Below, one piece after another: positions 1,651 through 32,080 of a DNA stretch of 46,407 nt; positions within the stretch are counted from its first letter, which is position 1, and each line of letters starts with the position of its first letter. The position numbers and the translations under genes were made by a program. The stretch comes from a virus: the IMG/VR virus record IMGVR_UViG_3300014572_000008. One strand, 5' to 3'. The notes under the pieces are model-generated. The model saw only the letters and a program-made list of their open reading frames with translations, made no database searches and had not been told where the DNA came from.

Positions 1651-1777
1651 TTTTGCGTCCTCCTTCTCTAATCTTCCAAATTCCGACGTTTATTTTTGTG
1701 CAGCTTCTATGTTGCGGTGGCTGGTTCTAAGTGGTAATATGTAATTGTTTACAAACCATATAAGGAGTGCCGCATTG

Positions 1778-2623
1778 ATGACTAAAAATGAATATATTGT
1801 GCAGTGCCCAAGATGCGGGGCAGAGTTCCCGGAACGGGAGAAGTTCTGCCCGCACTGTGACACGCCGAACCGGAAGATGATCTGCCGCTCTTGCGGAACG
1901 CAAATCAATGCAAGTGCCCGCGTCTGTCCGGAATGCGGCGCAAGAAACAAAAAGATGATTTCGGTTCAAAAAATCGCGATTCTTTCTGTTCCGTTCGCTG
2001 CCGTTGTGCTGGCAGTTGTCCTTATCGCATCAAAGCCCGCGAAGAAGCCAGCCGAGCCGATCAAGAGGCAGGAGCCGGATACAATCTCCGCATCGGAGTC
2101 GGCAAAGACGGAAGACGACGCACAGACCGAGGAAACGGCAACCACACCGATAACGGCTGAAAAAACATGGGGCAATAAGGTCAAGCTCACGATCCCAGCC
2201 GACTTTATCGGCGAAGATGCGACGCAGCAGGCATTGGACGAAAAGGTAAAGGAAACAGACGGGCTTCTGTCTATAGAGCTGAATCCTGACGGCTCCGCGA
2301 CCTACGTTATGACGGCGGCACGGCACAAAGAGCTTATGCAGGAGCTGGCGCAGAACATTGACGCCCAGCTTGCGGACATGGCCGGTTCCTCTGACTACCC
2401 AAACGTCATTTCCGCCGAAGCGTCCAGCGATTACACGTCCTTTACTGTAACGCTTTCTACTGATGTGGTTGGGCTTCAGGACTCACTCCTTACACTGGCA
2501 TTTTATATGTACGGCGGTATGTACAACGCATTCAACGGAACTCCGGCCGACAACGTGCGTGTGCAGTTTGTAGACCAGGCCGGAAATGTGCTGGAGGAAG
2601 CGAACTCGAGGGACGCACAATAA
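1778..2623 (+). CDS. Double zinc-ribbon membrane protein with large extracytoplasmic domain
   Basis: CPRCG..CPHC and CRSCG..CPECG ribbons, TM helix IAILSVPFAAVVLAVVLIA, about 190 aa beyond the helix; AAGGAG before ATG 1778 (track ORF begins at TTG 1745). Confidence 0.7.
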   Translation: MTKNEYIVQCPRCGAEFPEREKFCPHCDTPNRKMICRSCGTQINASARVCPECGARNKKMISVQKIAILSVPFAAVVLAVVLIASKPAKKPAEPIKRQEPDTISASESAKTEDDAQTEETATTPITAEKTWGNKVKLTIPADFIGEDATQQALDEKVKETDGLLSIELNPDGSATYVMTAARHKELMQELAQNIDAQLADMAGSSDYPNVISAEASSDYTSFTVTLSTDVVGLQDSLLTLAFYMYGGMYNAFNGTPADNVRVQFVDQAGNVLEEANSRDAQ

Positions 2624-3152: not shown

Positions 3153-3728
3153 ATGTCCGCAATACAGGATCTCGCTCCGTTTATCGGCGCGTATCAGGGG
3201 AAGATCAGAAGGGCAAAAGATGCAAGCGGGATGACGTTGGAGGAGCTGTCGAACGAGTCCGGCGTTTCCTTCTCTGCCGTGAGCCGATTATACGCTGGAA
3301 CACAAGCGGATCCACGGCTTTACAACTCGGCTGCGCTATGCAAAACGCTCGGGTTGTCGCTCGACGAGCTGTTCGGCCTTGAAAATCGCGTCGGAAGCCC
3401 GGAAAAGCTGACCAAGCAGATCCATCACGTCGAGCTTGAAAACGCCAAGCTGGAGGCAGCAACAGCCCTACAGAGCGCGCAGATAAGGTCTACACATACA
3501 ATGTGTTACATTCTCGCCCTATTTTGTTTGCTGCTCTCCTTTACCCTGATTGCCTGCCTTGTAACGGATGCGCAGATTCGGAACGCAGGCCTCATTCGCG
3601 ATGGAGATTTGACCGTAACCGCATGGGCGTGTATCGCCCTGATCGTAGGTTCAGTTCTGGCTTCTGCAATTACTTTCTACGCGATCCGAAAAGAACGTGG
3701 AGGGAAACATGGAGTGCATCAAGTGTAA
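3153..3728 (+). CDS. Membrane-tethered XRE-family HTH protein
   Basis: HTH MTLEELSNESGVSFSAVSRLYAGTQ; coiled segment; two C-terminal TM helices (MCYILALFCLLLSFTLIACLV, AWACIALIVGSVLASAITFYAI); GGAGG 7 nt before ATG; overlaps integrase start. Confidence 0.75.
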   Translation: MSAIQDLAPFIGAYQGKIRRAKDASGMTLEELSNESGVSFSAVSRLYAGTQADPRLYNSAALCKTLGLSLDELFGLENRVGSPEKLTKQIHHVELENAKLEAATALQSAQIRSTHTMCYILALFCLLLSFTLIACLVTDAQIRNAGLIRDGDLTVTAWACIALIVGSVLASAITFYAIRKERGGKHGVHQV

Positions 3729-4812
3729 AAAAGAAATTCCAGACGGCGCGCCCTACTGTTGCTGGTGCGGGAAAAAACAGGAAGCGCGGCGAAACCGGAC
3801 ACGCGGGAACGGGCAAGGAAGCGCTTACCAGCGAGGGAAGACGTGGACGGCGCGTTGGACAGAAAGAACTTACCTAGACGAGAACGACAAGCTTCGGCAA
3901 AAGATGCGAACAAAAGGCGGGTTTACATCAAAGCGCGCCGCCCTCCAATATGCAGCAAACCCTCCGAAGGAAGAGCAGCGAATCCCCACTCTCAGAGAAT
4001 ACTACAAAACATATCTGCGTGGGGATTATCTGTCCTTATCGGCTGATCGTCAGGGAGCGGCGGAAAAGGCTTTCGAGCGCATGAGAGAAATCGCCGACCG
4101 TGAGATAGACGCGCTTACCATCGCGCAGATACAGGATGTTATCGACCGCAACGCCAGCACCTATTACACACGGAAAGATATGAAAACCGTCCTTTCCCAC
4201 TGTTATAACCTCGCAATCGCAGAAAAGCAGACAACCGTGAATCTTGCAAAGTACATAAAGCTTCCGGAATTGGAAGAGAAGTCGCCGGAGCCGTTTACCG
4301 ACGCCGACGTAAAAAAGCTATGGGAAGCGTATGCAAAAGACCACTTCGTTGGGTTTATTTTAACGATGATTTATACCGGCATGATGCCCGGTGAGCTTCT
4401 GAAACTCAAGAAAGATATGATTGACTTTGAAAAGAATGAGATCGTCCGAGGCGGCATAAAGACAAAGAAGCGGAAGGAAACGCCTATGGTCTTCCCGGAT
4501 TTCGTTGCGCCGGTGCTGCATGAACTATGCGAAGAAAGCAAATCGCGCGTCGGAAATATCTGCTGCATAAACAAAGATAATTTTTACAAGAGATATTATG
4601 AGTGTTTGGAGCTTGCCGGAGTGCAAAAGCTACCACCTTACTCATGCCGCCATACAACCGCTACAGCCCTCGCGATGAAAAACATCGACCCGTTTACGAT
4701 CAAGGAAATCATGCGCCACACGAAGATAACGACTACCCAACGGTACGTACACCCGGACATGAAAGGCATGGTCGATGCCGTAAATCAGTTGCAAAACGAC
4801 TCGACAGAGTGA
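3709..4812 (+). CDS. int: Tyrosine recombinase / phage integrase with N-terminal zinc ribbon
   Basis: MECIKCKKEIPDGAPYCCWCG ribbon; C-terminal catalytic region ...CRHTTATALAMKNIDPFTIKEIMRHTKITTTQRYVH (H-x-x-R ... Y); next to attP; track ORF starts at GTG 3697. Confidence 0.9.
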   Translation: MECIKCKKEIPDGAPYCCWCGKKQEARRNRTRGNGQGSAYQRGKTWTARWTERTYLDENDKLRQKMRTKGGFTSKRAALQYAANPPKEEQRIPTLREYYKTYLRGDYLSLSADRQGAAEKAFERMREIADREIDALTIAQIQDVIDRNASTYYTRKDMKTVLSHCYNLAIAEKQTTVNLAKYIKLPELEEKSPEPFTDADVKKLWEAYAKDHFVGFILTMIYTGMMPGELLKLKKDMIDFEKNEIVRGGIKTKKRKETPMVFPDFVAPVLHELCEESKSRVGNICCINKDNFYKRYYECLELAGVQKLPPYSCRHTTATALAMKNIDPFTIKEIMRHTKITTTQRYVHPDMKGMVDAVNQLQNDSTE

Positions 4813-10264: not shown

Positions 10265-10975
10265 TTACTTTTCCTTGTGCTTCAGCACGGCAATATTTCC
10301 TTTATTGCCGACTTCGAGATCCAGCGCGGCGGCGATATCGCGCACCTTTACGTAGTTCGTACCGTTTTTCAGGATACGCTCAACGGCGACTTCCTTTCCG
10401 TCGACGATGATCTTGCTCTTTTCTACCATTTCGGTTTCCTCCTCTGCATTTTTTCCATCTTCGAGGGCCATCACGGTATGGCCCTCGCTTACCAGTACGT
10501 CCCCGCGCAGGAGATTCGCGTCCGTCGTCAGATACTTGCTGCCGGTCAGCAGCACAAAATCTCCCGTTGCTGGCCAATCGTGCAGCATACAGTAGGTGGT
10601 GCAGCTGTTGCCCTGCCGACGGTAGAGCGCTTCGACCGACGCGCAGCCTGCAGCCACGGCGCAGAGCATCATGAGCGCGGAGCAGTCCGTCTCCACGGGC
10701 TTTGCGATCCTGCTCACGTCCCACCCGACGGCTCTGGCGGCCTCATACGCCGTGTTCCTGTTGTCCATGTCGTAGCCGATGTTCCGGTTCTTAATGGCCG
10801 CCTCGCACGTCTGCGCGGCCCGCTCGGCCTTTTTGCGGCTCTTGTAGCGCAGGACGCCGAGCCAGCGGCCATTGTACCAGTTGGAGATATTCAGCTCCCG
10901 CCCGGTCTGGTTGCCGGGCTGCTGGTTGCGGCCGCCCGTCTCTCCAAGGCTGGCCTGCCCGATCTTGATGCTCAT
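10265..10975 (-). CDS. Endolysin: NlpC/P60- or CHAP-like catalytic domain + C-terminal wall-binding domain
   Basis: Cys in PVETDCSALMMLC and His in VSEGHTVMAL; C-terminal DGKEVAVERILKNGTNYVKVRDIAAALDLEV resembles copper-amine-oxidase-N-like stalk domains; ATGA overlap with holin stop. Confidence 0.85.
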   Translation of the reverse strand: MSIKIGQASLGETGGRNQQPGNQTGRELNISNWYNGRWLGVLRYKSRKKAERAAQTCEAAIKNRNIGYDMDNRNTAYEAARAVGWDVSRIAKPVETDCSALMMLCAVAAGCASVEALYRRQGNSCTTYCMLHDWPATGDFVLLTGSKYLTTDANLLRGDVLVSEGHTVMALEDGKNAEEETEMVEKSKIIVDGKEVAVERILKNGTNYVKVRDIAAALDLEVGNKGNIAVLKHKEK

Positions 10976-11190
10976 TTCTGCGCATCCTCCTTCGTGGCGT
11001 TGTCAATCGCGTCCTGCGCTTTCTGGCTCTGTGTGCCAAAGTAAAACGCGATCACGACGGTATACACCATCATAAAGTCCTGCGAGATCTTCCCGGCGAC
11101 TGCCATGTACGCAAATACCGCCGTCAGCACCAGCGTGACGATGGATTTGACGCTCAGCAGATTGCCGAGCCGCTTCTTGATGTTTTCCAT
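10972..11190 (-). CDS. Holin (two TM helices)
   Basis: 72 aa from ATG 11190 (GGAG upstream); SIVTLVLTAVFAYMAVAG and FMMVYTVVIAFYFG helices, charged tail; immediately before the endolysin. Confidence 0.8.
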   Translation of the reverse strand: MENIKKRLGNLLSVKSIVTLVLTAVFAYMAVAGKISQDFMMVYTVVIAFYFGTQSQKAQDAIDNATKEDAQK

Positions 11191-11203
11191 ATGTATGCTC
11201 CTT

Positions 11204-11416
11204 TCAGTCCTCTGTTTCGCTTTCGCTTCTCGTCGCAACCGCGTCAGAGATTGCGAGGTTCGCACGAAGCATTGTATCCTCCAACTTTGTCAGGGCGATA
11301 CTTCTATTCCTTCCCGCCGGGAGCTGCATGATGAGCGCCTCCGCTTCTTCAAGCTTCCCCCGAATGCTTTCCGACAGGTGTTTATCCATCGGTTCAAAAT
11401 TCACTCGCTTATACAT
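11204..11416 (-). CDS. Small helical hypothetical protein
   Basis: 70 aa; ...RNRSIALTKLEDTMLRANLAI...; lies in the lysis cassette. Confidence 0.6.
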   Translation of the reverse strand: MYKRVNFEPMDKHLSESIRGKLEEAEALIMQLPAGRNRSIALTKLEDTMLRANLAISDAVATRSESETED

Positions 11417-11438
11417 ATTGTGTACCCCTTTCGTTATT

Positions 11439-11696
11439 CTACCGGATCATTTTTTTTGCAAAAACCCGCTTGAATGCAAGCAGGCCAAGCTCTGTGATGG
11501 TTGCCCAGCCGGTAAAGCCGAGCACGTCGGACAGGTCGACCGACGCGCCGAACTCCGGGCTGTGGATGACTGCAATTAGGACGGCGACGGTTTTCAGAGC
11601 GCAGGCCCAGACAATTACCGTCGTGATGAGCTGGAGCAAATACACGACAATGGTACGCGCCATTTCACCCTTGCTCCATTTGCCTTTTGTCCGCAT
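11439..11696 (-). CDS. Two-TM membrane protein (holin-like or lysis accessory)
   Basis: 85 aa; AAGGAGG before ATG; helices IVVYLLQLITTVIVWACALKTVAVLIAVI and GFTGWATITELGLLAF. Confidence 0.6.
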   Translation of the reverse strand: MRTKGKWSKGEMARTIVVYLLQLITTVIVWACALKTVAVLIAVIHSPEFGASVDLSDVLGFTGWATITELGLLAFKRVFAKKMIR

Positions 11697-11710
11697 ATCT
11701 GCCTCCTTCT

Positions 11711-12055
11711 CTACTGTGCTGCGCTATGCCCGCATTGCGCCTCCAGCTGGTGTAAAAACTTCTTCACGTCGCCGTTTCCGCCCAGGTTGACGTATTTCTG
11801 CCCGGCGATCAGACGCTCGCCCATGGGCATTTCCTCGCTCATGATCGTGAGGCGGAGGATAGCCAGATACTGCTCGTCCTGATGCTCCTGCATTTTCCCG
11901 AGCTTTTTATCGATCTCGGCGAGGTGCGTATCCTGCGATGTGGCCTTTCCGCGCTTTTTCTGTATCGCGCTGACGATGGCATTGACTACCGCCGTCAGCG
12001 CGGACGAGCCGAGCACGGCGCAGACGAGGGTGACGATGATGGTTTTGGTGTCCAT
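11711..12055 (-). CDS. N-terminally membrane-anchored protein
   Basis: 114 aa from ATG 12055 (track ORF longer); MDTKTIIVTLVCAVLGSSALTAVVNAIVSAI then coiled region; first 11 aa identical to those of 13964-14461. Confidence 0.6.
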   Translation of the reverse strand: MDTKTIIVTLVCAVLGSSALTAVVNAIVSAIQKKRGKATSQDTHLAEIDKKLGKMQEHQDEQYLAILRLTIMSEEMPMGERLIAGQKYVNLGGNGDVKKFLHQLEAQCGHSAAQ

Positions 12056-20380: not shown

Positions 20381-20769
20381 ACCGGCGTCCTCTTGGGTTT
20401 CATAGCGACAAAATTGATCGTCAAATTGCCCCAATCATTGCGCCCGTCGTAGCTCCCGGTGAGCTCATCGTCGCCGTTTGCTACATAGGCGTCAAAGGTC
20501 ATAGTCCCCTGCGCATATGGGACGGTCAGCACGTGGCTGTCGACCGGGGCAGAAATGCTCTCATAAAAATCATCGTATTCCTCCGGGTCTGACGATACAG
20601 GATCAATTTCAAGGCTGTAGTTGTAATACGTGCCGATAATATCACGGGTCATCGCGCCGGTCATAACGCGCCCGGCATTGTCGCCGTCTAGGACGGAGAA
20701 CGACCGCTTGCAGCTTACGATGTGCAGATTGTAATACGCCTTGCCATCAAGGCTCAGTGCGCTTCTCAT
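20377..20769 (-). CDS. Distal tail protein (Dit)-like
   Basis: 130 aa; ATGA overlap with tape-measure stop; position-based call. Confidence 0.6.
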   Translation of the reverse strand: MRSALSLDGKAYYNLHIVSCKRSFSVLDGDNAGRVMTGAMTRDIIGTYYNYSLEIDPVSSDPEEYDDFYESISAPVDSHVLTVPYAQGTMTFDAYVANGDDELTGSYDGRNDWGNLTINFVAMKPKRTPV

Positions 20770-23048
20770 GTCTTCACCCCCGCAAGCTTCACGCCGACGC
20801 GCTGCGTCTCTTCGTTGTTCAGCTGATAGATCGCACGGCCCAGCTCCCGGCGGTCAAGCTGGAGGATGACGGTCATCTGCCGTCCTCCCGCGCCGCCGGT
20901 CTCGTTCATGGCCTGTTTGAAGGCCTGCACCATCGTGGAAAGCGGCGTCTCGATGTTCGTCCCGCTCTTTTGGTCGCCAAGAACGGCCATAAATTCCCGG
21001 TTTGGGGGAATGACCGCGCCGGAGGCGAGACGGGGGAGCTGGACGCGCGACACTGGCGGAATGTTGATTCCAATGGTTTTCCCGCCAACCAGCGGTACAC
21101 CATCCGGAATCTCGAAATGAATTTTATTCAGCGCCGAAAGCAGTAGGTTGATGCCGTCGATGATGAAGTTAATTCCGCCCTCTATTGTGCCGATTACGAG
21201 ATTCCAGACACCTTTCAGAATGTCAAGGACGCCATTCCAGGCTTTTTTCCAGTCTCCGGTAAACACGCCGGAAATAAACGTGATAAGCCCGCTAAGGATT
21301 TTCTTCCACGCCTCGTACTGATCTCCGAACAATTTGCCAATCGTTTCAAAGATGTTCGCAAGCGCCGGGTTTTTGCTGCGCAACCATTCAACAAATGCAT
21401 TCCATGCATCCTTGATAGAATTTACAATCGCATTCCACGTCTGTTTCAAGCCGTTCCAGATCTGCTTTGCGCCCTCTGCGGCAAGCTTCATATCGCCGGT
21501 AAATACGCCCTTGAAGAACTTCCCGAAGCCCCCAACAACATCTTTCAGCCCGTTGATCAGCTCCTCGCCGTGCCCTGTAAAGGAGACAAGTGCAACAAGG
21601 ATCGATGCAATTGCGGCGATCAGCAGCGGAATCCAGCTGCCCGTCAGGATGCTGATCCCGATGCCGGCGGCAAGCAGTCCAGCGATGATGGTCAGTGTGT
21701 TTTCCAGCGTAAAGCCGTTTTCGATCACATCTTTGATCCCGACGACTAACATCGCAAGGCCGCCTACCACGAGAGCGATTGCCGCAGCGGTCGGCCCAAA
21801 CGCAAGGGCGAGTCCACCCGCAAGCGCCGCAAGACCGCCGAGCATACCGAGGAAGTTTGTCATGTCGATTCCGTTGTTCCATGCGTCCAGCCAGAAATAG
21901 ACGAGCGCGAACGCGCCAGCCGCAGCGAGCGCGATGCCGCCGATCTTGCCGAGGTCGTCGGTAAACATACTGGCGATCTTCCACGCAAGGAGCCCTGCGG
22001 CGATTGCCCCGACAATGCCAAGAATGTCGTTCAGTTTGTCTTCGGCAAGATCCAGATTGGAGAAATCCGGCGTGATCCCGCTCGAAGCGCCTGCTCCGCT
22101 CGTCCCGCCGCCGCCGGACGCCTGATTGCTGGTGATCTGGTTGATTTCATCAAAGCCCGCCATGCTTTTGCTTGCGTCTTCTGCGGCAGCGCCCACCCCT
22201 TCAAGGGCTTCTTTTTCGGCATTCAGACCCTTTGCTGCTGAAACCTGCGCGCCCCAGCTCTTTCCGGATAGCATACCGAAAAACTTCGCGATTGCCGTCA
22301 CGACTTGGGTTAAAATGTTCACTAACTTCACAAAAACCGGGATCACAACTTCTAGGATCGGCTGCGCAAGTGTCAAAAGGGCGGCTTTCAGTCGCGCAAT
22401 AGATGCGCGGGCGGCTTCGTTCTGCATGATTGTCTCGCCGAGCCAGCTACGCAGCTGCGAAAGGCCGCGGGACAGGACGGTAAAGATCAGCGCGCTCCTT
22501 AGTACCCCGCTTAATCTTCTTCCGAATTTGTTCATGCTCTTTTCGACGCTCGCCGATACCTCCGCCATTTTAGCCGAGGCTCCGCTGGCGTTCGTGATCT
22601 GCTGCACCAGCTCACCGGCTTTGGTCTTTGCAGCGTCAAGCGCATCGGTCTGGGTTATCACCTTGTCGGTGATCTTTGCATATTGACTCCCGAGCTTTTC
22701 CGCCGTTTTGTTTTGCTGCACCAGCAGCTGTTCCTGCTCTTTGATCTGCGCAGCAACCTCCGCCTGTCGAGAATAAGCGTCTATGTACTCAGCTGGATTA
22801 GCCGAAGTGTTTCCGGACGTGATGCCCTTTAGGCGGTCAGCCTCCGAGCGGAGCGATTTCAGCGCGTCTTCCGTCTGCTTTGCGGACTGAAGCGCAGCGT
22901 CCAGCTCCTTTTTAAGCCCGCTCTGCGTTCCGGTATCCTCGTTTAGCTTGGCTTCCATCTTGTCGATTTTCGCAGACAGCGTATCAAGCTCCTTCTGTGC
23001 CTTTTTCGCGTCCGCGTCGACGGCGATCACAATTTTTCCATCCGCCAT
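20766..23048 (-). CDS. Tail tape measure protein
   Basis: 760 aa from ATG 23048 (GGTGGTG RBS); N-terminal coiled coils, central multi-TM Gly/Ala-rich block, repeated W-x-x motifs (AWNAFVEW, AWKKIL, AWNGVLDIL); track N-extension is antisense to the moron. Confidence 0.9.
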   Translation of the reverse strand: MADGKIVIAVDADAKKAQKELDTLSAKIDKMEAKLNEDTGTQSGLKKELDAALQSAKQTEDALKSLRSEADRLKGITSGNTSANPAEYIDAYSRQAEVAAQIKEQEQLLVQQNKTAEKLGSQYAKITDKVITQTDALDAAKTKAGELVQQITNASGASAKMAEVSASVEKSMNKFGRRLSGVLRSALIFTVLSRGLSQLRSWLGETIMQNEAARASIARLKAALLTLAQPILEVVIPVFVKLVNILTQVVTAIAKFFGMLSGKSWGAQVSAAKGLNAEKEALEGVGAAAEDASKSMAGFDEINQITSNQASGGGGTSGAGASSGITPDFSNLDLAEDKLNDILGIVGAIAAGLLAWKIASMFTDDLGKIGGIALAAAGAFALVYFWLDAWNNGIDMTNFLGMLGGLAALAGGLALAFGPTAAAIALVVGGLAMLVVGIKDVIENGFTLENTLTIIAGLLAAGIGISILTGSWIPLLIAAIASILVALVSFTGHGEELINGLKDVVGGFGKFFKGVFTGDMKLAAEGAKQIWNGLKQTWNAIVNSIKDAWNAFVEWLRSKNPALANIFETIGKLFGDQYEAWKKILSGLITFISGVFTGDWKKAWNGVLDILKGVWNLVIGTIEGGINFIIDGINLLLSALNKIHFEIPDGVPLVGGKTIGINIPPVSRVQLPRLASGAVIPPNREFMAVLGDQKSGTNIETPLSTMVQAFKQAMNETGGAGGRQMTVILQLDRRELGRAIYQLNNEETQRVGVKLAGVKT

Positions 23049-23067
23049 ATTTTCACCACCTTTTCGG

Positions 23068-23096
23068 TTGATTTTTGTTATTATTTGTGTTATCTT
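23068..23096 (+). promoter_or_regulatory. Promoter of the reverse-oriented moron
   Basis: TTGATT (23068-23073), 17-nt spacer ending TGt, TATCTT (23091-23096). Confidence 0.6.
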
Positions 23097-23117
23097 CCAA
23101 GTAAGGAGGGAAGAAAT

Positions 23118-23960
23118 ATGAGTGATTGCATTATCCAAATCAGCCGGGACAATTCTTTTTACGGTTCTGGCCTGACCGTCGGCGTTGCATTGGATGGCTG
23201 TGATGTCGGCACGCTGAAAAACGGTGAAGAACTTCGAGCCGTGGCCGCTCCGGGCCAGCACGAACTTTCTTTTTACCGGTATCGCCGTCTGGATAAAACC
23301 ATATCCTTTACCATTGCCGAAGGGCAACAGAATGCGTTTTTTACCATCAAGATTAACGCCTCGAACCGCGTTGACGTTGTTGGCGGGCTAAAAACCAAAA
23401 AGCAGGCGAAACGCCCCAGCGGCTGCCTGACGGCTTTAATCGTATTCCTCTGTCTTTTCGTCTTTATTGGCGCGGCCTTTGCTTCCTGCGGATCGTCCTT
23501 CAAGCCGGAAAAGGTCGGAACCTCAGTTTCTTCTTCGCAGCAGCCGCCGCAGCAATCCGATTCCGGGCCTGAAACATTTGGCGTTGGGGATCAGGTCGTT
23601 CTAGACGGCGTGGCGGTCACGTTGCTCAGTGTTACCGAGAATTCCGGCCAAAATTACGTCTCGCCGGATGATGGAAAGGTCTTTGTTCTGTGCGAATTCG
23701 AGATCGAAAACAATTCATCCCGCGATATTGCGTCCAGCACCATGCTTTCATTCGAAAGCTACATTGATGGCTATACAACCAGCCTCAGCCTCACCGCCAT
23801 GATGAGTTCCGACGAGCCGCAGCTTGACGGCACGATTGCCGCCGGGAAGAAAATGAAAGGTGTCGTCGGATATGAAGCGCCGCAGGATTGGAGTGAGATC
23901 GAGATTCGATTCTCTCCAAGCTTCTGGGGTGGCGAAATCGTTTTCGAGTATAAAAAATAA
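23118..23960 (+). CDS. Membrane protein with extracellular DUF4352-like domain (moron)
   Basis: 280 aa from ATG 23118 (AAGGAGGG upstream); about 95-aa cytoplasmic beta-rich part, TM LTALIVFLCLFVFIGAAFA, Ser/Gln/Pro linker, then GVGDQVVLDGVAVTLLSV...KVFVLCEFEIENNSSRDI...GYEAP typical of DUF4352; only plus-strand gene inside the structural block. Confidence 0.8.
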   Translation: MSDCIIQISRDNSFYGSGLTVGVALDGCDVGTLKNGEELRAVAAPGQHELSFYRYRRLDKTISFTIAEGQQNAFFTIKINASNRVDVVGGLKTKKQAKRPSGCLTALIVFLCLFVFIGAAFASCGSSFKPEKVGTSVSSSQQPPQQSDSGPETFGVGDQVVLDGVAVTLLSVTENSGQNYVSPDDGKVFVLCEFEIENNSSRDIASSTMLSFESYIDGYTTSLSLTAMMSSDEPQLDGTIAAGKKMKGVVGYEAPQDWSEIEIRFSPSFWGGEIVFEYKK

Positions 23961-23972
23961 GTTTTTCCTGCT

Positions 23973-24002
23973 GCCGCCCCTTAACCGGGGCGGCTGTTTT
24001 TT
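23973..24002 (+). terminator. Rho-independent terminator of the moron
   Basis: GCCGCCCC / GGGGCGGC perfect 8-bp stem, 6-nt loop, TGTTTTTT; stop codon of the minus-strand Gp15-like gene lies in the loop. Confidence 0.8.
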
Positions 24003-24565
24003 GTCCCGACTCCCCATACGGCAAGCAGGTCGGCTTCGGCCTCCGAGTATGTTGTCTTCAGATCGACGATATCCCGGTTGCGCCGGTAGAAATCCCTCTC
24101 CTGTTTGTCGAGACTCTTCCCTCTGGCCTTTTTATCGCGGATAGAAACCACCTGTGCATACAGGCAATCTCCGATTTCTTGATAGTACGATAGAAACGAA
24201 TACCAATGCAGGTATTCCAGCGCCCGGACCTCGCAGCCCGCGATTCGGTTGATAGGCGCAATATAGAGATCAAAGTCCTGCGCCCATGACATGATCTCTG
24301 GCTGCTTTCTCTTCTCTCGATTCTCCTGCCCGTGGTCGATGAAGCGGAAGCACTGGTTCAGGGCTTCCTGATAGTCGCTGACGGGCATTTCTTCGAAGTC
24401 GGGATAGAAGATGGTCAGCGCCGCTTCCGCCTTATCCCGCTCGTCCAGTTCCCTGTCTGTCAGGGCTACGAGGATATCGAGGATTGCGCGGTAATCAGAT
24501 TGGATCGCGTATTCTGTTCCGTCGACCTCAACAGAGGTCGGCAGGGAATAGATCACTTTCCCCAT
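23981..24565 (-). CDS. Gp15-family tail assembly protein
   Basis: 194 aa; ...DYRAILDILVAL... ALEYLHWYSFLSYYQEIGD... matches my memory of the Bacteriophage Gp15 family; sits where a tail chaperone belongs. Confidence 0.7.
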   Translation of the reverse strand: MGKVIYSLPTSVEVDGTEYAIQSDYRAILDILVALTDRELDERDKAEAALTIFYPDFEEMPVSDYQEALNQCFRFIDHGQENREKRKQPEIMSWAQDFDLYIAPINRIAGCEVRALEYLHWYSFLSYYQEIGDCLYAQVVSIRDKKARGKSLDKQERDFYRRNRDIVDLKTTYSEAEADLLAVWGVGTKNSRPG

Positions 24566-24568
24566 CTA

Positions 24569-25015
24569 TCAATATATTTCGCGAACAGGGGGCCTGCGCG
24601 TTTTCCATCTATCTGTATATTTCGCAATCCTCGGGTTGGTCTTCTTCTGCTCTGCCGCGAAGCTCGTGTCGATCTGATCGATCACGGCCAGCATGAGGTT
24701 GCACCATACTGGCAGGCCGTCGGCCAGCGCGTAGACGTTCATAGTGCCGAACAGGTCTGCGCAGACAGGCTTGGCAAACAGGCCGTCGATCATGTCCCGC
24801 ATTTCCGCGTCGCGGCGGCGGGCAATGGCGAAAATCTCCTTCTTGTCCGCGCAGCGGTCAATCTCGGCCTTATACGCCTCCTGCTTCCCGTCCAGTTCGT
24901 CAAACGTGTTGAATATCTGTTCAACAAATGCGCTGTCGGTCGGGTTGAAGGAGACTTCCGCCGCGTCGTTCAGCTTGAACGATACGATACCGGTTTCAAA
25001 TTTGATTTCAGGCAT
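24569..25015 (-). CDS. Tail assembly chaperone
   Basis: 148 aa, acidic; between the major tail protein and the Gp15-like gene. Confidence 0.65.
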   Translation of the reverse strand: MPEIKFETGIVSFKLNDAAEVSFNPTDSAFVEQIFNTFDELDGKQEAYKAEIDRCADKKEIFAIARRRDAEMRDMIDGLFAKPVCADLFGTMNVYALADGLPVWCNLMLAVIDQIDTSFAAEQKKTNPRIAKYTDRWKTRRPPVREIY

Positions 25016-25028
25016 TTATGCAGCCTCC

Positions 25029-25562
25029 TTAATCCGAATCCGGCGTGAACGTGATGGTTCCATCCGAACCGCGCGCTGCGGTTCCTGTTGTCCTGTTTCC
25101 GCCGTATGTCACTTCAATGTCCGAAGCAAGAACGCCGCCGCCCTCGCCTCCGTCTGTCGTGACGAGCACCGCGCAGGCGTCATACTGCTCTGCAAACGAC
25201 TTCCCTTCGGAGTCCTGCAGGTATGTGTGGATGATCAGGCATTTCTGATTTACCAGAGCGGCATGGTTCTTCTCCACGACTGCAAGATTGAGCAGATGGT
25301 TCATCACGTCGTCACCGCCTACAATCTCACTGCCGGAAAAGCTCTGTGTCATTTCTGGTGTCTGTGCGTTCGTGTACACGTGCCCCAGAATGTCCTTCTT
25401 CGTTTCCTGCCCCCAATCGTAGTTGATGGAGCTCTCCGTCACCTTGACGCCCATCGCCGACCACTTCGATGTGGTGCTGTCGCTGGTGTCCAGAGCGGTA
25501 ATCAGCATTTCACGGACTGCGCTCTCGCCGTTTTTTGCCGCGATTGTGTATTTATTTGCCAT
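25029..25562 (-). CDS. Major tail protein
   Basis: 177 aa; position after head-tail connectors; beta-rich, Thr/Gly-rich C-terminus. Confidence 0.8.
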   Translation of the reverse strand: MANKYTIAAKNGESAVREMLITALDTSDSTTSKWSAMGVKVTESSINYDWGQETKKDILGHVYTNAQTPEMTQSFSGSEIVGGDDVMNHLLNLAVVEKNHAALVNQKCLIIHTYLQDSEGKSFAEQYDACAVLVTTDGGEGGGVLASDIEVTYGGNRTTGTAARGSDGTITFTPDSD

Positions 25563-29543: not shown

Positions 29544-29629
29544 GGGTTCTCCTTCACAGCTTCGCTTTGTTCTCGCGGGTCGCGTCCGCTGCTGCCCCGT
29601 AGTTTAGCGACTTCGGGCCGGTCAAGATT

Positions 29630-29678
29630 TGATAAAACAAAAAGAGCCAACCTGTAAGAAAACCTTACAGGTTAGCTC
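29630..29678 (-). terminator. Strong rho-independent terminator inside the head module
   Basis: 15-bp stem 29644-29658 / 29664-29678 (perfect on the minus strand with one G-U), 5-nt loop, then TTTTTGTTTT on the minus strand. Confidence 0.8.
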
Positions 29679-29720
29679 ATCGTGCCATTCCGCGCACTCG
29701 ATTGTGCTGCGGTATCTGTA

Positions 29721-29849
29721 TTACTTTTTCAGCTCTTCCGCCTTGATGATCTGCGCCTTGACTGTTCCGTCCTTCATGCGCTTCAGCTGGACGCGGAATC
29801 CGGCGGCAAGCGCCCGCTCGATGGCGGCTTTCAGTTTTTCGTCGATCAT
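29721..29849 (-). CDS. Micro-protein (42 aa, below ORF-track cutoff)
   Basis: Hand translation MIDEKLKAAIERALAAGFRVQLKRMKDGTVKAQIIKAEELKK; GAGGA before ATG 29849. Confidence 0.45.
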   Translation of the reverse strand: MIDEKLKAAIERALAAGFRVQLKRMKDGTVKAQIIKAEELKK

Positions 29850-29859
29850 ACGGCGTTCC

Positions 29860-30177
29860 TCACGGGATCAGGTCTACAATGCCCTTCGCGGCATTATAGA
29901 TCCGCTTCATGATCGCGTTCTCCTGCAAGTATTCAAGCCCCTGCAGCGTGATCTGAATCCGGCGCTCATTCCTCAGGTGCATTTCGCCCGTGACGTCGGT
30001 ATAAAGCTCCGCGCCCTTGATAAGCCCCGCGTCCTGAAGCATTTCCAGATACCTGTAGAGACGTTCTCCGGACACCTGCATGGAGTCCAGGCCGAAGCTC
30101 TCCACGCTGAACGCCGGAAGATCCATCGCGCGTTCCAGCGCAGACAGCATTTTATAAATCGCTTTGAAGTTGTCCAT
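29860..30177 (-). CDS. YjcQ-like winged-helix protein
   Basis: 105 aa from ATG 30177 (GGGGGA RBS); MDNFKAIYKMLSALERAMD...YLEMLQDAGLIKG as in the YjcQ family (from memory). Confidence 0.6.
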   Translation of the reverse strand: MDNFKAIYKMLSALERAMDLPAFSVESFGLDSMQVSGERLYRYLEMLQDAGLIKGAELYTDVTGEMHLRNERRIQITLQGLEYLQENAIMKRIYNAAKGIVDLIP

Positions 30178-30289
30178 TTGAATTTCCCCCCTTGCATTTT
30201 TTGTGAGAGTGTGGTATAGAATAGATAAGAGCCGGTCGCTGTCCACGACCCCTTCCCAGAAGGGCGAGATGGTGTGTCGGCTTCTTTTT

Positions 30290-32080
30290 TTATTTTCTTT
30301 TTACGATTCTCTGCACTTTTCCATTTCGGATTTCAATGATCTCATCAACCCACTCAGTATCCTTTCTGGCAAATATTTTTTCAATTTGCGCATCTATTGT
30401 TTTTTCGTCAAGCTTGGTCTTGGTGACATCCAGAATAAACCGCTGCCCCTGCTTGGCTGCCTTTTTCACACGATTGAAAATCGTATTTCCCCCGGCTTTT
30501 TCTCCGAGCGTTTTCAGGTCATACGCTTCCCCTCGGAAAATATAGTCCGGTGTGGACACCCCCTGCGGATTATTGACACGCGGAACTAGCCCAATTTCGC
30601 CGCCGAATTCCTTTTCAAGGAGTCCGGCAATTTCTTTTTCGTGCTCTGTGTGGTCAAGCACGACATTATGCCCGTCGACCTTGTATGTAACGCCGTTTGC
30701 AGTATACTCCTGCAAGTCCTGTACAGTGTGGCTGTTCGGAGTGGCCTCCGCGCGCCACTTTTCCGTTACGTCGGTGTATCTCGGCTGAAAGCCGGCGCTT
30801 TCTGCTGGTTCTGTGTTGGTCGGAGGTTCCACCCGCTCAACCGTTTTCGCTTTGCTGGCCGCAGCCTCGGATTTTGCGTCTGTATACAGAACCCTTGTCC
30901 GCTCCGGCTGCTCTGGCAGTCCTGCTGCCTTGCTGAAATCATGGTATTTCGTGTTCAGGCGGCGCAGCTTGGCTGCTGCGGCGGTCTCCTTGTCCTTTTG
31001 TCCGGATGCTTTATAGGCGTTTTTCAAACGCTTCTGTTTGCGAATCGACCGTTCGAGCCGTCTTTGCATTTGGGTCGCTTCGTACGCGGTATATTTCTTC
31101 CCGTCAAACTCGCAGCCGAGACCATCATCAATGTGTTCCAGCTGCTCCTCGGAATAGGTTGGCTCCATGACGCCCGGGATATAGGCGTGCTTATAGTGTC
31201 GGCAATTTGCGCCGGTCAGGCCGTCTACATAGCCGTAGCCTGTCGTTTCCACAAAATCTTTGTACTGTCCAAGCGGGTCAGGCTCCCCGTTCTCGCTTTT
31301 GTAATAAATGCGCCCCTGCCAATCCTTGTGGCTCGACCACGGGGACGGGCCGGGCTTGTCTCGTGCGCCGGAGTGGGCTGTGATCTCAAAATACCGGGTA
31401 TCCAGATATTCCGCCGACTGGTCGGAATACTTGTCGCAGATTTGCGCCACGCCCGTCATAACGGCCCGGCGGGCGGCCACGTCGATTTGATCTGTGTGTC
31501 CGCTCTCATAGTCTACGACTTTGATTCCGCTTTCTGCCAGCTGCTTGACGGCGTTGGCAATCGCCTGATTATAGCTGATCGCCCCGCTCTGAATTTGCAG
31601 CGTTGACGAATTTAGGGCCCACTGATATGCTTGCGCAGGCGGAAGCATTCTCTGGCCATTGTCCACTAAAAACCCCAAAGATTGCGTCAGATTTCGGAAT
31701 TCTCCGAGCGTCTGCCTGCGGATCGCGTCGATATCGGAGGCGTCTACCAGCCGGTCAGGCTTCGTCACATCGGCCAGCGTAATAAGGTCGTTGTAATATC
31801 GCCGGTTGCGCTCCACAACATCGTCGAGCAGCTTGTTCAGTTTTTCTTCGCTGACGTCCGCTGTCTTCTGGATGGCCCTTTTGATCTTCTTGAGATCAAT
31901 GCCGTGCGACCGCAGCGCCCGGATATCCTGAACCGTTACTTCGTTGAGCTGATCGGCAATTTTAAGCCGGGAACAGACTTCATCCAGCAGCGTATCTTCC
32001 AGCGCACGGAACAGCTCCGCGAGTTCTTCCGGGAGGGCGTCGAGCAGCTCCGGACTGAACGGATACTTGACCTTTCTCAT
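30290..32080 (-). CDS. Minor head (MuF / SPP1 gp7-type) protein fused to a C-terminal PD-(D/E)xK nuclease toxin-like domain
   Basis: 596 aa; N-terminal about 390 aa resemble minor capsid protein 2; Ala/Pro/Glu linker; last about 150 aa carry HEKEIAGLLEKEF - GEIGLVPRV - STPDYIF - GEAYDLKTL; follows the portal gene. Confidence 0.85.
   Translation of the reverse strand: MRKVKYPFSPELLDALPEELAELFRALEDTLLDEVCSRLKIADQLNEVTVQDIRALRSHGIDLKKIKRAIQKTADVSEEKLNKLLDDVVERNRRYYNDLITLADVTKPDRLVDASDIDAIRRQTLGEFRNLTQSLGFLVDNGQRMLPPAQAYQWALNSSTLQIQSGAISYNQAIANAVKQLAESGIKVVDYESGHTDQIDVAARRAVMTGVAQICDKYSDQSAEYLDTRYFEITAHSGARDKPGPSPWSSHKDWQGRIYYKSENGEPDPLGQYKDFVETTGYGYVDGLTGANCRHYKHAYIPGVMEPTYSEEQLEHIDDGLGCEFDGKKYTAYEATQMQRRLERSIRKQKRLKNAYKASGQKDKETAAAAKLRRLNTKYHDFSKAAGLPEQPERTRVLYTDAKSEAAASKAKTVERVEPPTNTEPAESAGFQPRYTDVTEKWRAEATPNSHTVQDLQEYTANGVTYKVDGHNVVLDHTEHEKEIAGLLEKEFGGEIGLVPRVNNPQGVSTPDYIFRGEAYDLKTLGEKAGGNTIFNRVKKAAKQGQRFILDVTKTKLDEKTIDAQIEKIFARKDTEWVDEIIEIRNGKVQRIVKRK

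What the first reader, a model, noticed from the sequence alone, without database searches (positions are those of the whole stretch)
23049..24002. Self-contained reverse-strand moron (promoter, membrane DUF4352-like protein, terminator) inserted between the tail chaperones and the tape measure gene
In an otherwise unbroken minus-strand structural block of more than 30 kb, one plus-strand gene sits exactly between the Gp15-like chaperone gene and the tape measure gene. It has:
- Its own promoter: TTGATT, 17 nt, TGt-TATCTT (23068-23096).
- A strong RBS (AAGGAGGG).
- A clean terminator (8-bp GC stem plus T-run, 23973-24002), whose loop contains the stop codon of the chaperone gene.

The product has a 95-aa cytoplasmic part, one TM helix, a Ser/Gln/Pro linker and an extracellular beta-sandwich resembling DUF4352.

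Consequences:
1. The late transcript must read about 0.9 kb antisense through this gene to reach the tape measure.
2. The gene can be expressed from the prophage independently of late transcription.

This is the moron pattern, and a candidate for superinfection exclusion or another lysogen-surface function. Blocking DNA injection would be a plausible role given its neighbours, but that is speculation.
Basis: partly seen in the sequence, partly recalled or inferred. Interest (0 to 1): 0.65.

Follow-up and report, generated by a model that had tools for sequence, protein, structure and literature searches.

The report
Reverse-strand moron between tail genes
A temperate phage of gut Clostridia carries a backwards-facing gene cassette between its Gp15 tail gene and its tape measure gene. 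It encodes a membrane protein with a surface-exposed DUF4352 domain. Related phages hold similar proteins, restriction-type nucleases or nothing at that spot, so it is most likely an accessory gene that protects the lysogen, not a tail part.

Summary
A real 280-aa gene (+ strand, 23118-23960) lies between the tape measure gene (TMP, minus, 20766-23048) and a Gp15-family gene (minus, 23981-24565). It has a Shine-Dalgarno site, a conserved extended -10 promoter-like site and the best intrinsic terminator in the region.

The product has four parts: a cytoplasmic beta-sandwich, one TM helix, a disordered linker and an external DUF4352 sandwich.

- The cassette sits in the same slot and orientation in more than 90 related loci (54-100% protein identity), under purifying selection.
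- Other relatives have Gp15 abutting TMP directly (gaps of 12-80 nt).
- In a wider set of 80 phages the slot holds Zn-ribbon-TM-DUF4352 proteins (53), Mrr-type nucleases (13 plus one remnant), an unknown gene (1) or nothing (10).
- A paralogue sits between a CI-like repressor and the integrase of another prophage.
- 5 of 80 alleles are frameshifted or truncated, so the gene is dispensable.

This is the slot of HK97 gene 15, the archetypal moron, which excludes superinfecting phage. The moron structure is well supported. An exclusion function is inferred, not shown. I rate it a new member of a known kind, of moderate interest.

The parts
23068..23096 (+). Promoter-like site: -35 TTGATT (23068-23073), 17-nt spacer, extended -10 TGtTATCTT (23088-23096)
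   Evidence: Read from the sequence. It matches 8 of 12 consensus positions and was not listed by the generic scan. TTG, TGnTAT..T and the spacing are invariant in five divergent cassettes. Similar extended -10 promoters precede other DUF4352 cassettes. The pattern is rare in the window: 2 found against 0.18 expected.
23103..23110 (+). Shine-Dalgarno site AAGGAGGG, 7 nt upstream of the ATG
   Evidence: AGGAGG is conserved in alignment A2.
23118..23960 (+). CDS of the 280-aa bitopic membrane protein (stop codon included)
   Evidence: dN/dS is 0.10-0.26. Full-length homologues share 54-99% identity.
23118..23402 (+). N-terminal cytoplasmic beta-sandwich domain (aa 1-95), weakly DUF2846-like
   Evidence: AlphaFold2 pLDDT is about 90. 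The Pfam DUF2846 hit (E 2.6e-4) is below the gathering cut-off. Only generic sandwich matches were found in PDB. The domain recurs at the N terminus of other TM proteins. The basic stretch KTKKQAKR before the TM helix argues for an N-in orientation.
23421..23486 (+). Single transmembrane helix (aa 102-123), preceded by the conserved GCLTA motif
   Evidence: Helix 102-123 in the model. Motif conservation.
23487..23570 (+). Disordered Ser/Gln/Pro-rich linker (aa 124-151)
   Evidence: pLDDT below 50 over aa 136-150. It has the highest dN of the three parts.
23571..23957 (+). Extracytoplasmic DUF4352 / DUF5067 beta-sandwich (aa 152-280)
   Evidence: Pfam. Foldseek matches to YxkC, YcdA, CD630_09570 and YjhA. 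It is 44% identical to the Zn-ribbon cassette protein of L108.
23973..24002 (+). Intrinsic terminator of the cassette, functional on the + strand only: 8-bp G-C stem, loop TTAACC, T-run
   Evidence: A hairpin plus T-run is kept, with different stem sequences, in L001, L004 and all other cassette types. On the minus strand no U-run follows the stem (sequence).
20766..23048 (-). Tape measure protein gene (760 aa). Its SD (GGTGGTG, 23054-23060 on the minus strand) lies in the shared 69-nt intergenic region.
   Evidence: phrog_1535 E 3e-66. CACCACC is invariant in A2.
23981..24565 (-). Gp15-family gene (PF06854) at the tail-assembly-chaperone position. Its last 22 nt overlap the cassette terminator.
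   Evidence: The overlap is read from the sequence. The chaperone role is inferred from position only.

Best explanation
The feature is a moron: an autonomous accessory transcription unit (promoter, SD, gene, one-way terminator). It lies head-on in the late tail operon of a temperate siphovirus of gut Clostridia, exactly between the stop codon of the Gp15-family gene and the ribosome-binding site of the tape measure gene.

The product inserts in the cytoplasmic membrane N-in/C-out. A roughly 95-aa beta-sandwich stays in the cytoplasm. A DUF4352 Ig-like sandwich is held outside the membrane on a flexible linker of about 28 aa.

The most likely role (inferred) is protection of the lysogen from incoming phages at the envelope or DNA-entry step, that is, superinfection exclusion. 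This would resemble HK97 gp15, which occupies the same slot, and the TM-DUF4352 protein Mpr of mycobacteria. The protein would be made from the repressed prophage through its own promoter. During lytic growth the late transcript reads through the cassette in antisense to reach the tape measure gene, because the hairpin has no U-run on that strand.

Shown: gene, fold, topology signals, cassette borders, presence/absence, alternative cargo, purifying selection and dispensability. Inferred: promoter activity, expression in the lysogen, and the exclusion function and its target.
For: Cassette anatomy:
- Gene, domains and flanks.
- Best terminator in the region, and it works in one direction only.
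- Promoter and terminator are conserved or structurally replaced across cassettes.

Presence and absence:
- Same slot and orientation in L001-L006, in 80 of 80 IMG/VR loci and in L088.
- Empty slots with Gp15 12-80 nt from TMP in L089, L090, L091 and 10 of 80 more distant loci.
- A clean 711-nt cassette is delimited by the pair L108 / L163.

Association with defence and lysogeny:
- The same slot carries Mrr_cat nucleases, whose nuclease domains match those of defence proteins.
- Further Zn-ribbon-TM-DUF4352 homologues sit in this slot in phages with other capsid types.
- One paralogue lies between a CI-like S24 repressor and the integrase, the classical sie position.
- The window encodes an integrase and a repressor-like protein.

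Selection:
- dN/dS is 0.10-0.26 in all three parts of the protein.
- 5 of 80 alleles are disrupted, against 0 of 80 for Gp15.

Precedents:
- HK97 gene 15 lies between the chaperone and TMP genes and blocks DNA entry.
- Exclusion by Ltp and by HK97 gp15 is escaped through the TMP or tail region.
- Mpr is a TM-DUF4352 protein giving non-abortive phage resistance, escaped through a minor tail protein.
- The Tab and P-FimU morons lie in late or tail operons.
Against: - There are no expression data of any kind.
- The promoter matches only 8 of 12 consensus positions and implies a leader of about 15 nt starting at the SD.
- No PADLOC model matches the protein.
- DUF4352 is a broad envelope-protein family. 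It has chromosomal members (P0047 in a housekeeping neighbourhood). Its structural neighbours are linked to cell-wall or unknown functions (YxkC-DacA, YcdA, YjhA).
- Base composition differs only slightly from the flanks (GC 0.48-0.53 against 0.55-0.60).
- TMP varies a great deal (73-99% identity) among loci whose DUF4352 protein is 94-99% identical. This gives no sign of tight co-evolution with the whole TMP.
- The exclusion function rests on analogy and neighbourhood only.
Confidence: 0.5

Rival explanations
1. Lysogenic conversion that is not aimed at phages. The surface DUF4352 domain would alter envelope physiology, for example by binding a penicillin-binding protein, a cell-wall enzyme or a glycan, or by affecting adhesion or colonisation in the gut. 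It would benefit the host in some way other than phage resistance.
For: The cassette architecture is the same as for the main explanation. DUF4352 relatives include chromosomal genes in housekeeping neighbourhoods. The closest structural matches are B. subtilis YxkC modelled in complex with DacA, and the lipoproteins YcdA and YjhA. No PADLOC model matches.
Against: The slot alternates with Mrr-type nucleases, which make sense as anti-phage cargo. The association with the Gp15-TMP module persists across phages with three different capsid types. The only DUF4352 protein with a tested phenotype, Mpr, confers phage resistance.
Confidence: 0.25
2. A lytic-cycle accessory function. The gene would be expressed early after infection or induction, before late transcription collides with it. 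It would mask the receptor or entry site so that progeny are not wasted on infected cells or debris (as with T5 Llp; that comparison is from my own knowledge). Alternatively it would tune lysis.
For: The head-on position inside the late operon implies that expression is shut down by late transcription (inference). The gene is adjacent to tail genes. A strong SD is present.
Against: A paralogue sits next to the CI-like repressor and the integrase, which is typical of lysogen-expressed genes. The phage is temperate. No lysis-related domain is present. In mechanism this largely overlaps with the main explanation and differs mainly in timing.
Confidence: 0.12
3. A selfish or decaying passenger with no current function, retained only through linkage to essential tail genes.
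For: 5 of 80 alleles are frameshifted or truncated, and many truncated protein clusters exist in public data. A remnant of the Mrr cassette is seen in L177.
Against: dN/dS is 0.10-0.26 in the N domain, the TM-linker segment and the C domain, similar to Gp15. Promoter, SD and terminator are conserved. 75 of 80 alleles are intact. Protein architecture is conserved down to 54% identity.
Confidence: 0.06
4. A structural or assembly component of the tail, for example a membrane-associated assembly factor needed with Gp15 and TMP.
For: Its position between two tail genes is conserved in more than 90 loci.
Against: It is on the opposite strand with its own terminator and has a TM helix. It is absent from relatives with intact Gp15-TMP junctions. 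It is replaced by nucleases in others. It is disrupted in otherwise intact loci.
Confidence: 0.03

Closest known systems
HK97 gene 15 moron (gp15, YebO-like inner-membrane superinfection exclusion protein)
   Same: It occupies the same slot, between the tail assembly chaperone gene(s) and the tape measure gene, with its own terminator (GenBank AF069529 annotation; PMC3594210). It is a membrane protein expressed from the prophage. It blocks DNA entry, and the block is escaped by swapping the tail tube and TMP region.
   Different: HK97 gp15 is 62 aa, lies on the same strand as the operon and comes from a Gram-negative host. It shows no sequence similarity to the protein here. The protein here is 280 aa, sits on the reverse strand and has folded domains on both sides of the membrane. 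Its function is untested.
Mpr (multicopy phage resistance) of Mycobacterium smegmatis, and the DUF4352 proteins of temperate mycobacteriophages (Stink gp33, Fionnbharth gp44)
   Same: Both have an N-terminal region, a TM helix and a C-terminal DUF4352 domain. Mpr gives non-abortive resistance acting after adsorption, and escape maps to a minor tail protein. Phage-encoded DUF4352 domains can replace that of Mpr (PMC9262609, PMC12596739).
   Different: The papers describe the Mpr N terminus as a largely unstructured exonuclease region. Here the N terminus is a well-folded beta-sandwich, or a Zn ribbon in sister cassettes. The phyla differ. No direct sequence comparison with Mpr was made here. 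No nuclease or NTPase motif was identified.
Ltp (TP-J34) and Sie2009-type exclusion proteins of Gram-positive siphoviruses
   Same: They are surface-exposed, membrane-anchored, prophage-encoded proteins that block DNA injection. Ltp is overcome by changes in TMP. A DUF4352 paralogue occupies the equivalent repressor-integrase position.
   Different: Ltp is a lipoprotein. That its ectodomain is made of helix-turn-helix repeats is from my own knowledge, not from a paper read here. The protein here has no conserved lipobox and a beta-sandwich ectodomain. It lies in the tail operon rather than the lysogeny module.
Defence or moron hotspots in phage genomes (Tab of JBD26, P-FimU of F10-like phages, the HK97 'reverse moron' gene 23)
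   Same: These are accessory genes embedded in late or tail operons and expressed from the prophage. Tab targets the TMP and P-FimU lies between the tail tube and chaperone genes. HK97 has an annotated reverse-strand moron in its tail region. Here too there is alternative cargo at a fixed site.
   Different: The slot, host group (gut Clostridia) and cargo families (TM-DUF4352, Mrr_cat) all differ. No phenotype is available here.

Membership tests
Moron (Juhala/Hendrix sense) | An extra gene present in some phages and absent at the same site in related phages | tested here: met
   Empty Gp15|TMP junctions occur in L089 (Gp15 76% identical), L090, L091 and 10 of 80 more distant loci. The pair L108 / L163, with nearly identical flanks, differs by a 711-nt cassette.
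Moron (Juhala/Hendrix sense) | Its own terminator | tested here: met
   An 8-bp G-C hairpin plus T-run, listed first in the scan. An equivalent terminator is present in every cassette type.
Moron (Juhala/Hendrix sense) | Its own promoter | tested here: inconclusive
   A sub-consensus site (8 of 12) with an extended -10. Key bases and spacing are invariant across divergent cassettes. There is no transcript evidence.
Moron (Juhala/Hendrix sense) | Expression from the repressed prophage | not testable with these tools
   This needs lysogen RNA-seq or 5'-RACE. The phage is temperate.
Moron (Juhala/Hendrix sense) | Base composition deviating from the neighbours | tested here: inconclusive
   GC is 0.48-0.53 against 0.55-0.60 in the flanks, a small difference.
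DUF4352 (PF11611) / DUF5067 (PF16729) | Profile match above the Pfam gathering score | tested here: met
   66.3 bits against a cut-off of 25.9, and 51.7 bits against 27.
DUF4352 (PF11611) / DUF5067 (PF16729) | Ig-like beta-sandwich fold as in YjhA and YcdA | tested here: met
   Foldseek matches to 4r4g, 5bxg, 3cfu, 4les and 9a4z with E between 4e-7 and 1e-4.
Mpr-like phage resistance proteins | TM anchor followed by a C-terminal DUF4352 domain | tested here: met
   The Mpr architecture is taken from PMC12596739.
Mpr-like phage resistance proteins | N-terminal Mg-dependent 3'-5' exonuclease region | not tested
   The Mpr sequence was not at hand. The N domain here is a generic beta-sandwich with no nuclease match.
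Mpr-like phage resistance proteins | Confers phage resistance when expressed | not testable with these tools
   This needs an experiment.
Ltp-type sie lipoproteins | N-terminal signal peptide with a lipobox cysteine | tested here: not met
   There is no N-terminal signal peptide. The Cys after the TM helix (ASC) is not conserved in P0014-P0016.
HK97 gp15 / YebO family | Sequence similarity to gp15 | tested here: not met
   BLASTP finds no alignment with E <= 100.
HK97 gp15 / YebO family | Position between the tail assembly chaperone and TMP genes | tested here: met
   The orientation differs.
Known defence systems (PADLOC-DB v2) | Match to any defence protein model | tested here: not met
   No hit for the window protein or for the Zn-ribbon DUF4352 proteins. 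Only the Mrr cargo gives hits.

The most novel reading that the evidence does not exclude
The Gp15|TMP junction of a large family of temperate siphoviruses of gut Clostridia would be a dedicated reverse-strand defence-cargo hotspot. Its dominant cargo would be a previously unrecognised, widespread family of Mpr-like superinfection-exclusion proteins: bitopic proteins with an external DUF4352 domain and a small cytoplasmic module (a Zn ribbon or the DUF2846-like sandwich). The ectodomain would engage the incoming tail tip or tape measure protein. The cytoplasmic module would act on the entry channel or the entering DNA. Tight linkage to the TMP gene would keep the blocker and its target type together.
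Probability: 0.3. Interest if true: 0.65.

Novelty: new member of a known kind. Interest (0 to 1): 0.45.

Why it matters
Prophage genes that exclude other phages shape which phages can spread in the gut microbiome. Almost none are known for the abundant, mostly uncultured Clostridia.

This cassette is found in many human-gut assemblies: its 90% identity cluster alone has 1025 member sequences. It marks a fixed cargo site that can be recognised from sequence, at the same place as the archetypal HK97 moron.

If the TM-DUF4352 proteins do exclude phages, three things follow:
- The single experimental DUF4352 precedent (mycobacterial Mpr) would extend to Firmicutes.
- A function would be assigned to a very common 'domain of unknown function' in phage genomes.
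- There would be a simple genomic rule (look between Gp15 and TMP) for finding new defence genes in gut phages.

If they do not, the site is still a clean example of how accessory genes are tolerated head-on inside an essential late operon.

Tried and rejected
1. Lipoprotein idea. The motif AFASC after the TM helix looked like a lipobox. The Cys is not conserved in homologues at 54-60% identity and there is no N-terminal signal peptide. Rejected.
2. Separate 90-aa N-domain gene. Proteins P0128-P0135 suggested a two-gene version. They are frameshifted alleles, with 1-nt indels at different sites that all run into the same out-of-frame TAA.
3. PADLOC gave no match for the DUF4352 proteins.
4. 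Megablast of 20700-25100 against the INPHARED phage collection gave no match. tblastn found only two partial hits.
5. A fold search of the N domain alone gave only generic transthyretin, CBM or Ig-like sandwiches, with no E below 1e-3. A sequence search of PDB gave nothing significant.
6. The 'unknown 183-aa' reverse ORF seen next to many cassettes is an antisense ORF inside the TMP gene. It is also present at empty sites and was discarded.
7. The start codons I assumed for the Mrr ORFs are over-extended into TMP antisense, so their promoters were not assessed.
8. The + strand ORF at 29629-30219 is spurious, because small minus-strand genes lie there.
9. Rfam and tRNA scans of the window found nothing.
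10. Co-evolution with TMP. TMP is highly mosaic among loci with near-identical DUF4352 proteins. In L006 and L088 the break point lies inside the gene, which fits simple linkage. No specific co-variation signal was found.
Full report
**1. What is there**

The + strand ORF starting at ATG 23118 and ending at TAA 23960 encodes 280 aa. It is a real gene.
- Pfam DUF4352 matches aa 154-273 (E 3.9e-18, 66 bits against a cut-off of 25.9). DUF5067 matches at E 1e-13.
- PHROG 806, of unknown function, covers aa 105-279 (E 6e-25).
A 760-aa tape measure protein (TMP) gene lies on the minus strand at 20766-23048 (phrog_1535, E 3e-66). A Phage_Gp15 (PF06854) gene lies on the minus strand at 23981-24565. 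I treat Gp15 as chaperone-like from its position only.
- The + strand AT skew loses its negative sign inside the gene, as expected for a gene on the other strand. GC is only slightly lower than in the flanks.

**2. Expression signals**

- The hairpin at 23973-23994 (8 G-C pairs, loop TTAACC) followed by TGTTTTTTGT is listed first among the 24 terminator-like sites between 17 and 30 kb. It folds at -20.5 kcal/mol, z = -3.5.
- On the minus strand the same hairpin is not followed by a U-run, so it should not stop the late transcript.
- The Gp15 stop codon lies in the loop. The last six Gp15 codons are the antisense of the T-run and the 3' arm.
It scores only 8 of 12, so the scanner did not list it.
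- Conservation supports the promoter. I aligned the 70-nt intergenic region of cassettes whose proteins are 54-70% identical. The invariant columns are the TTG of the -35, TGnTAT..T of the extended -10, the SD, the start codon and the SD of TMP on the other strand.
- The distance from the -10 to the start codon is fixed at 21-22 nt. This implies a very short leader of about 15 nt that starts at the SD, which is a weakness.
- Every cassette examined, whatever its cargo, ends in a strong hairpin plus T-run whose stem sequence differs between lineages.

**3. The protein**

- An AlphaFold2 model built from 76 homologues (pLDDT 82.6) shows four parts. They are a beta-sandwich (aa 4-89), a helix (102-123), a disordered Ser/Gln/Pro linker (124-150) and a second beta-sandwich (152-280).
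- The basic stretch KTKKQAKR before the helix indicates an N-in/C-out orientation.
- The C domain matches the DUF4352 structures YxkC (modelled with DacA), YcdA, CD630_09570, YjhA and a B. anthracis protein.
- A 99% identical protein is already in UniProt as 'DUF4352 domain-containing protein [Siphoviridae sp. ctOIB27]'.
- Modelled alone (pLDDT 90.5), the N domain resembles only generic transthyretin or Ig-like sandwiches. It matches DUF2846 weakly, below the cut-off.
- The N domain recurs at the N terminus of other bitopic proteins whose ectodomain is a tRNA_anti-like OB fold. It therefore behaves as an interchangeable cytoplasmic module, like the Zn ribbon of the sister proteins.
- The apparent lipobox is not conserved.

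**4. Distribution in related phages**

- Full-length homologues at 54-70% identity sit in exactly the same place and orientation. Their phages have different capsid and terminase modules.
- All 80 IMG/VR loci retrieved through Gp15 (92-100% identity) carry the gene. So does a Clostridiales MAG contig.
- MAG titles point to uncultured Clostridiales and Oscillospiraceae as hosts.
- Other relatives have no cassette. These are L089 (Gp15 76% identical, 12-nt gap), L090 (80 nt) and L091 (21 nt).
- A second scan used distant Gp15 sequences and returned 80 more loci. Their slots hold:
  - Zn-ribbon-TM-DUF4352 proteins in 53, one of them truncated;
  - Mrr_cat restriction-endonuclease proteins in 13, plus one remnant;
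  - an unknown 174-aa gene in 1;
  - nothing in 10;
  - 2 could not be classified, mostly because the contig ends before TMP.
- The Mrr cargo matches the nuclease domains of defence proteins in PADLOC. The DUF4352 cargo matches nothing there.
- L108 (occupied) and L163 (empty) have nearly identical flanks. They differ by a 711-nt block consisting of terminator, reverse gene, SD and promoter. The block sits between the Gp15 stop codon and the TMP SD and is flanked by a short A-rich direct repeat.
- Of four further Zn-ribbon-DUF4352 homologues sampled, two are again in the Gp15|TMP slot. One lies between a CI-like S24 repressor and an integrase. One is chromosomal.
- A GenBank gut phage (MT835513.1) shows the same Gp15 / reverse DUF4352 / TMP order.
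- The window's C-terminal part is 44% identical to the L108 protein. In the window's lineage the Zn ribbon has evidently been replaced by the beta-sandwich module.

**5. Selection and dispensability**

- Intact alleles give dN/dS of 0.10-0.26 in all three parts of the protein, similar to Gp15 (0.08-0.17). The linker evolves fastest.
- In L006 and L088 the N domain is as diverged as the adjacent TMP, while the C domain is as conserved as the adjacent Gp15. A recombination break point therefore lies inside the gene.
- The 90-aa 'N-domain proteins' in public data are frameshifted alleles.
- In the unbiased IMG/VR set the gene is disrupted in 5 of 80 loci, by at least three different mutations. 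No disruption was seen in Gp15 (80 loci), the 148-aa gene (58) or TMP (52 full-length matches). Per nucleotide this would occur by chance with probability of roughly 0.005-0.02.
- The gene is therefore functional but dispensable for the phage. This fits an accessory gene and argues against a virion component.

**6. Interpretation**

- The window is from a temperate phage. It has an integrase (3697-4812) and a repressor-like gene (3153-3728).
- The cassette meets the structural definition of a moron. It lies in the very slot of the first moron described, HK97 gene 15. That gene sits between the chaperone genes 13/14 and the TMP gene 16 and is followed by a terminator. It encodes a membrane protein that blocks DNA entry in a tail-dependent way.
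- HK97 also has an annotated reverse moron in its tail region.
- The only DUF4352 protein with a tested phenotype is mycobacterial Mpr. It has the same overall architecture and gives non-abortive resistance, which is escaped through a minor tail protein.
- The slot alternates with nuclease cargo, and a paralogue sits next to a repressor. Taken together, these points make an envelope-level, phage-directed protective role the best explanation. I put it at about 0.5.
- A non-phage envelope function is the main rival.
- Promoter activity, lysogen expression and any phenotype remain untested.

**7. Verdict**

What is new is not the moron concept. It is that this junction is a long-lived, recurrently used reverse-strand cargo site in a large family of gut phages, dominated by TM-DUF4352 proteins. 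I rate it a new member of a known kind, with interest of about 0.45.

Noticed in passing
window 1745-2623 (+): A second bitopic protein: a double Zn ribbon, a TM helix, an acidic/Thr-rich linker and an unassigned ectodomain of about 150 aa. It lies just upstream of the repressor-like gene (3153-3728) and the integrase (3697-4812), the classical sie/moron position. It has no similarity to the DUF4352 protein.
   Followed up: partly
L099-L103, L014, L039, L067, L075, L082 (gene equivalent to window 23118-23960): Recurrent loss-of-function alleles. There are 1-nt deletions in the T6 run (gene position about 219) and in a G/C run (about 135), a 1-nt insertion and a nonsense codon. The frameshifted alleles produced by the 1-nt deletions end at the same out-of-frame TAA (window 23389-23391), giving '90-aa proteins' in databases.
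   Followed up: yes
L156, L157, L168, L171, L173-L176, L178-L181, L144; remnant in L177: The same Gp15|TMP slot carries reverse-strand Mrr_cat restriction-endonuclease genes of 391 aa, or 295 aa with an FtsK-gamma-like domain. L177 keeps only the last 62 codons.
   Followed up: partly
L007-L086, TMP genes (equivalent to window 20766-23048): TMP is strongly mosaic. Among loci with Gp15 at least 92% identical, TMP identity ranges from about 73 to 99%, and in many only the first 305-342 aa align in one piece. The DUF4352 protein stays at 94-99%.
   Followed up: no
window 23981-24002: The Gp15 reading frame runs into the cassette terminator. Its last codons (K N S R P G, then stop) are the antisense of the T-run, the 3' arm and the loop. 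Gp15 of L001 and L004 lacks this tail.
   Followed up: partly
P0146, P0147, P0152, P0153, P0154, P0157 (remote homologues of aa 1-90): The N-terminal DUF2846-like sandwich also heads proteins built as N domain, TM helix, TPR-like helices and a tRNA_anti-like OB fold. One also has a Zn ribbon. This points to a family of modular bitopic proteins with swappable ectodomains. Their genomic contexts were not examined.
   Followed up: partly
window 29644-29678 (-) and 30185-30290: A 16-bp hairpin plus T-run lies on the minus strand after small head-region genes. There is also a + strand promoter-like site (TTGCAT, 17 nt, TGgTATAGA), followed within about 60 nt by a hairpin and T-run. The late head operon may be punctuated by further signals or a small RNA unit.
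   Followed up: no
window 11105-11790 (+): Two + strand ORFs (122 and 106 aa) fill a 735-nt gap in minus-strand coding next to the endolysin-like gene (10265-10975, PF25309). They have no family hits and may be another reverse-strand unit.
   Followed up: partly
L006 11134-11787 (+): A 217-aa reverse-strand gene sits between two ORFs that both hit Phage_min_cap2. This may be another reverse-strand insertion, in the head module of a related phage. It is unrelated to the window ORF at 29629-30219.
   Followed up: partly
L108 4545-5260 versus L163 4545-4552: The 711-nt cassette is flanked by a short A-rich direct repeat (TAAAA(AA)GC) that is present once at the empty site. This fits gain or loss by microhomology.
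   Followed up: partly
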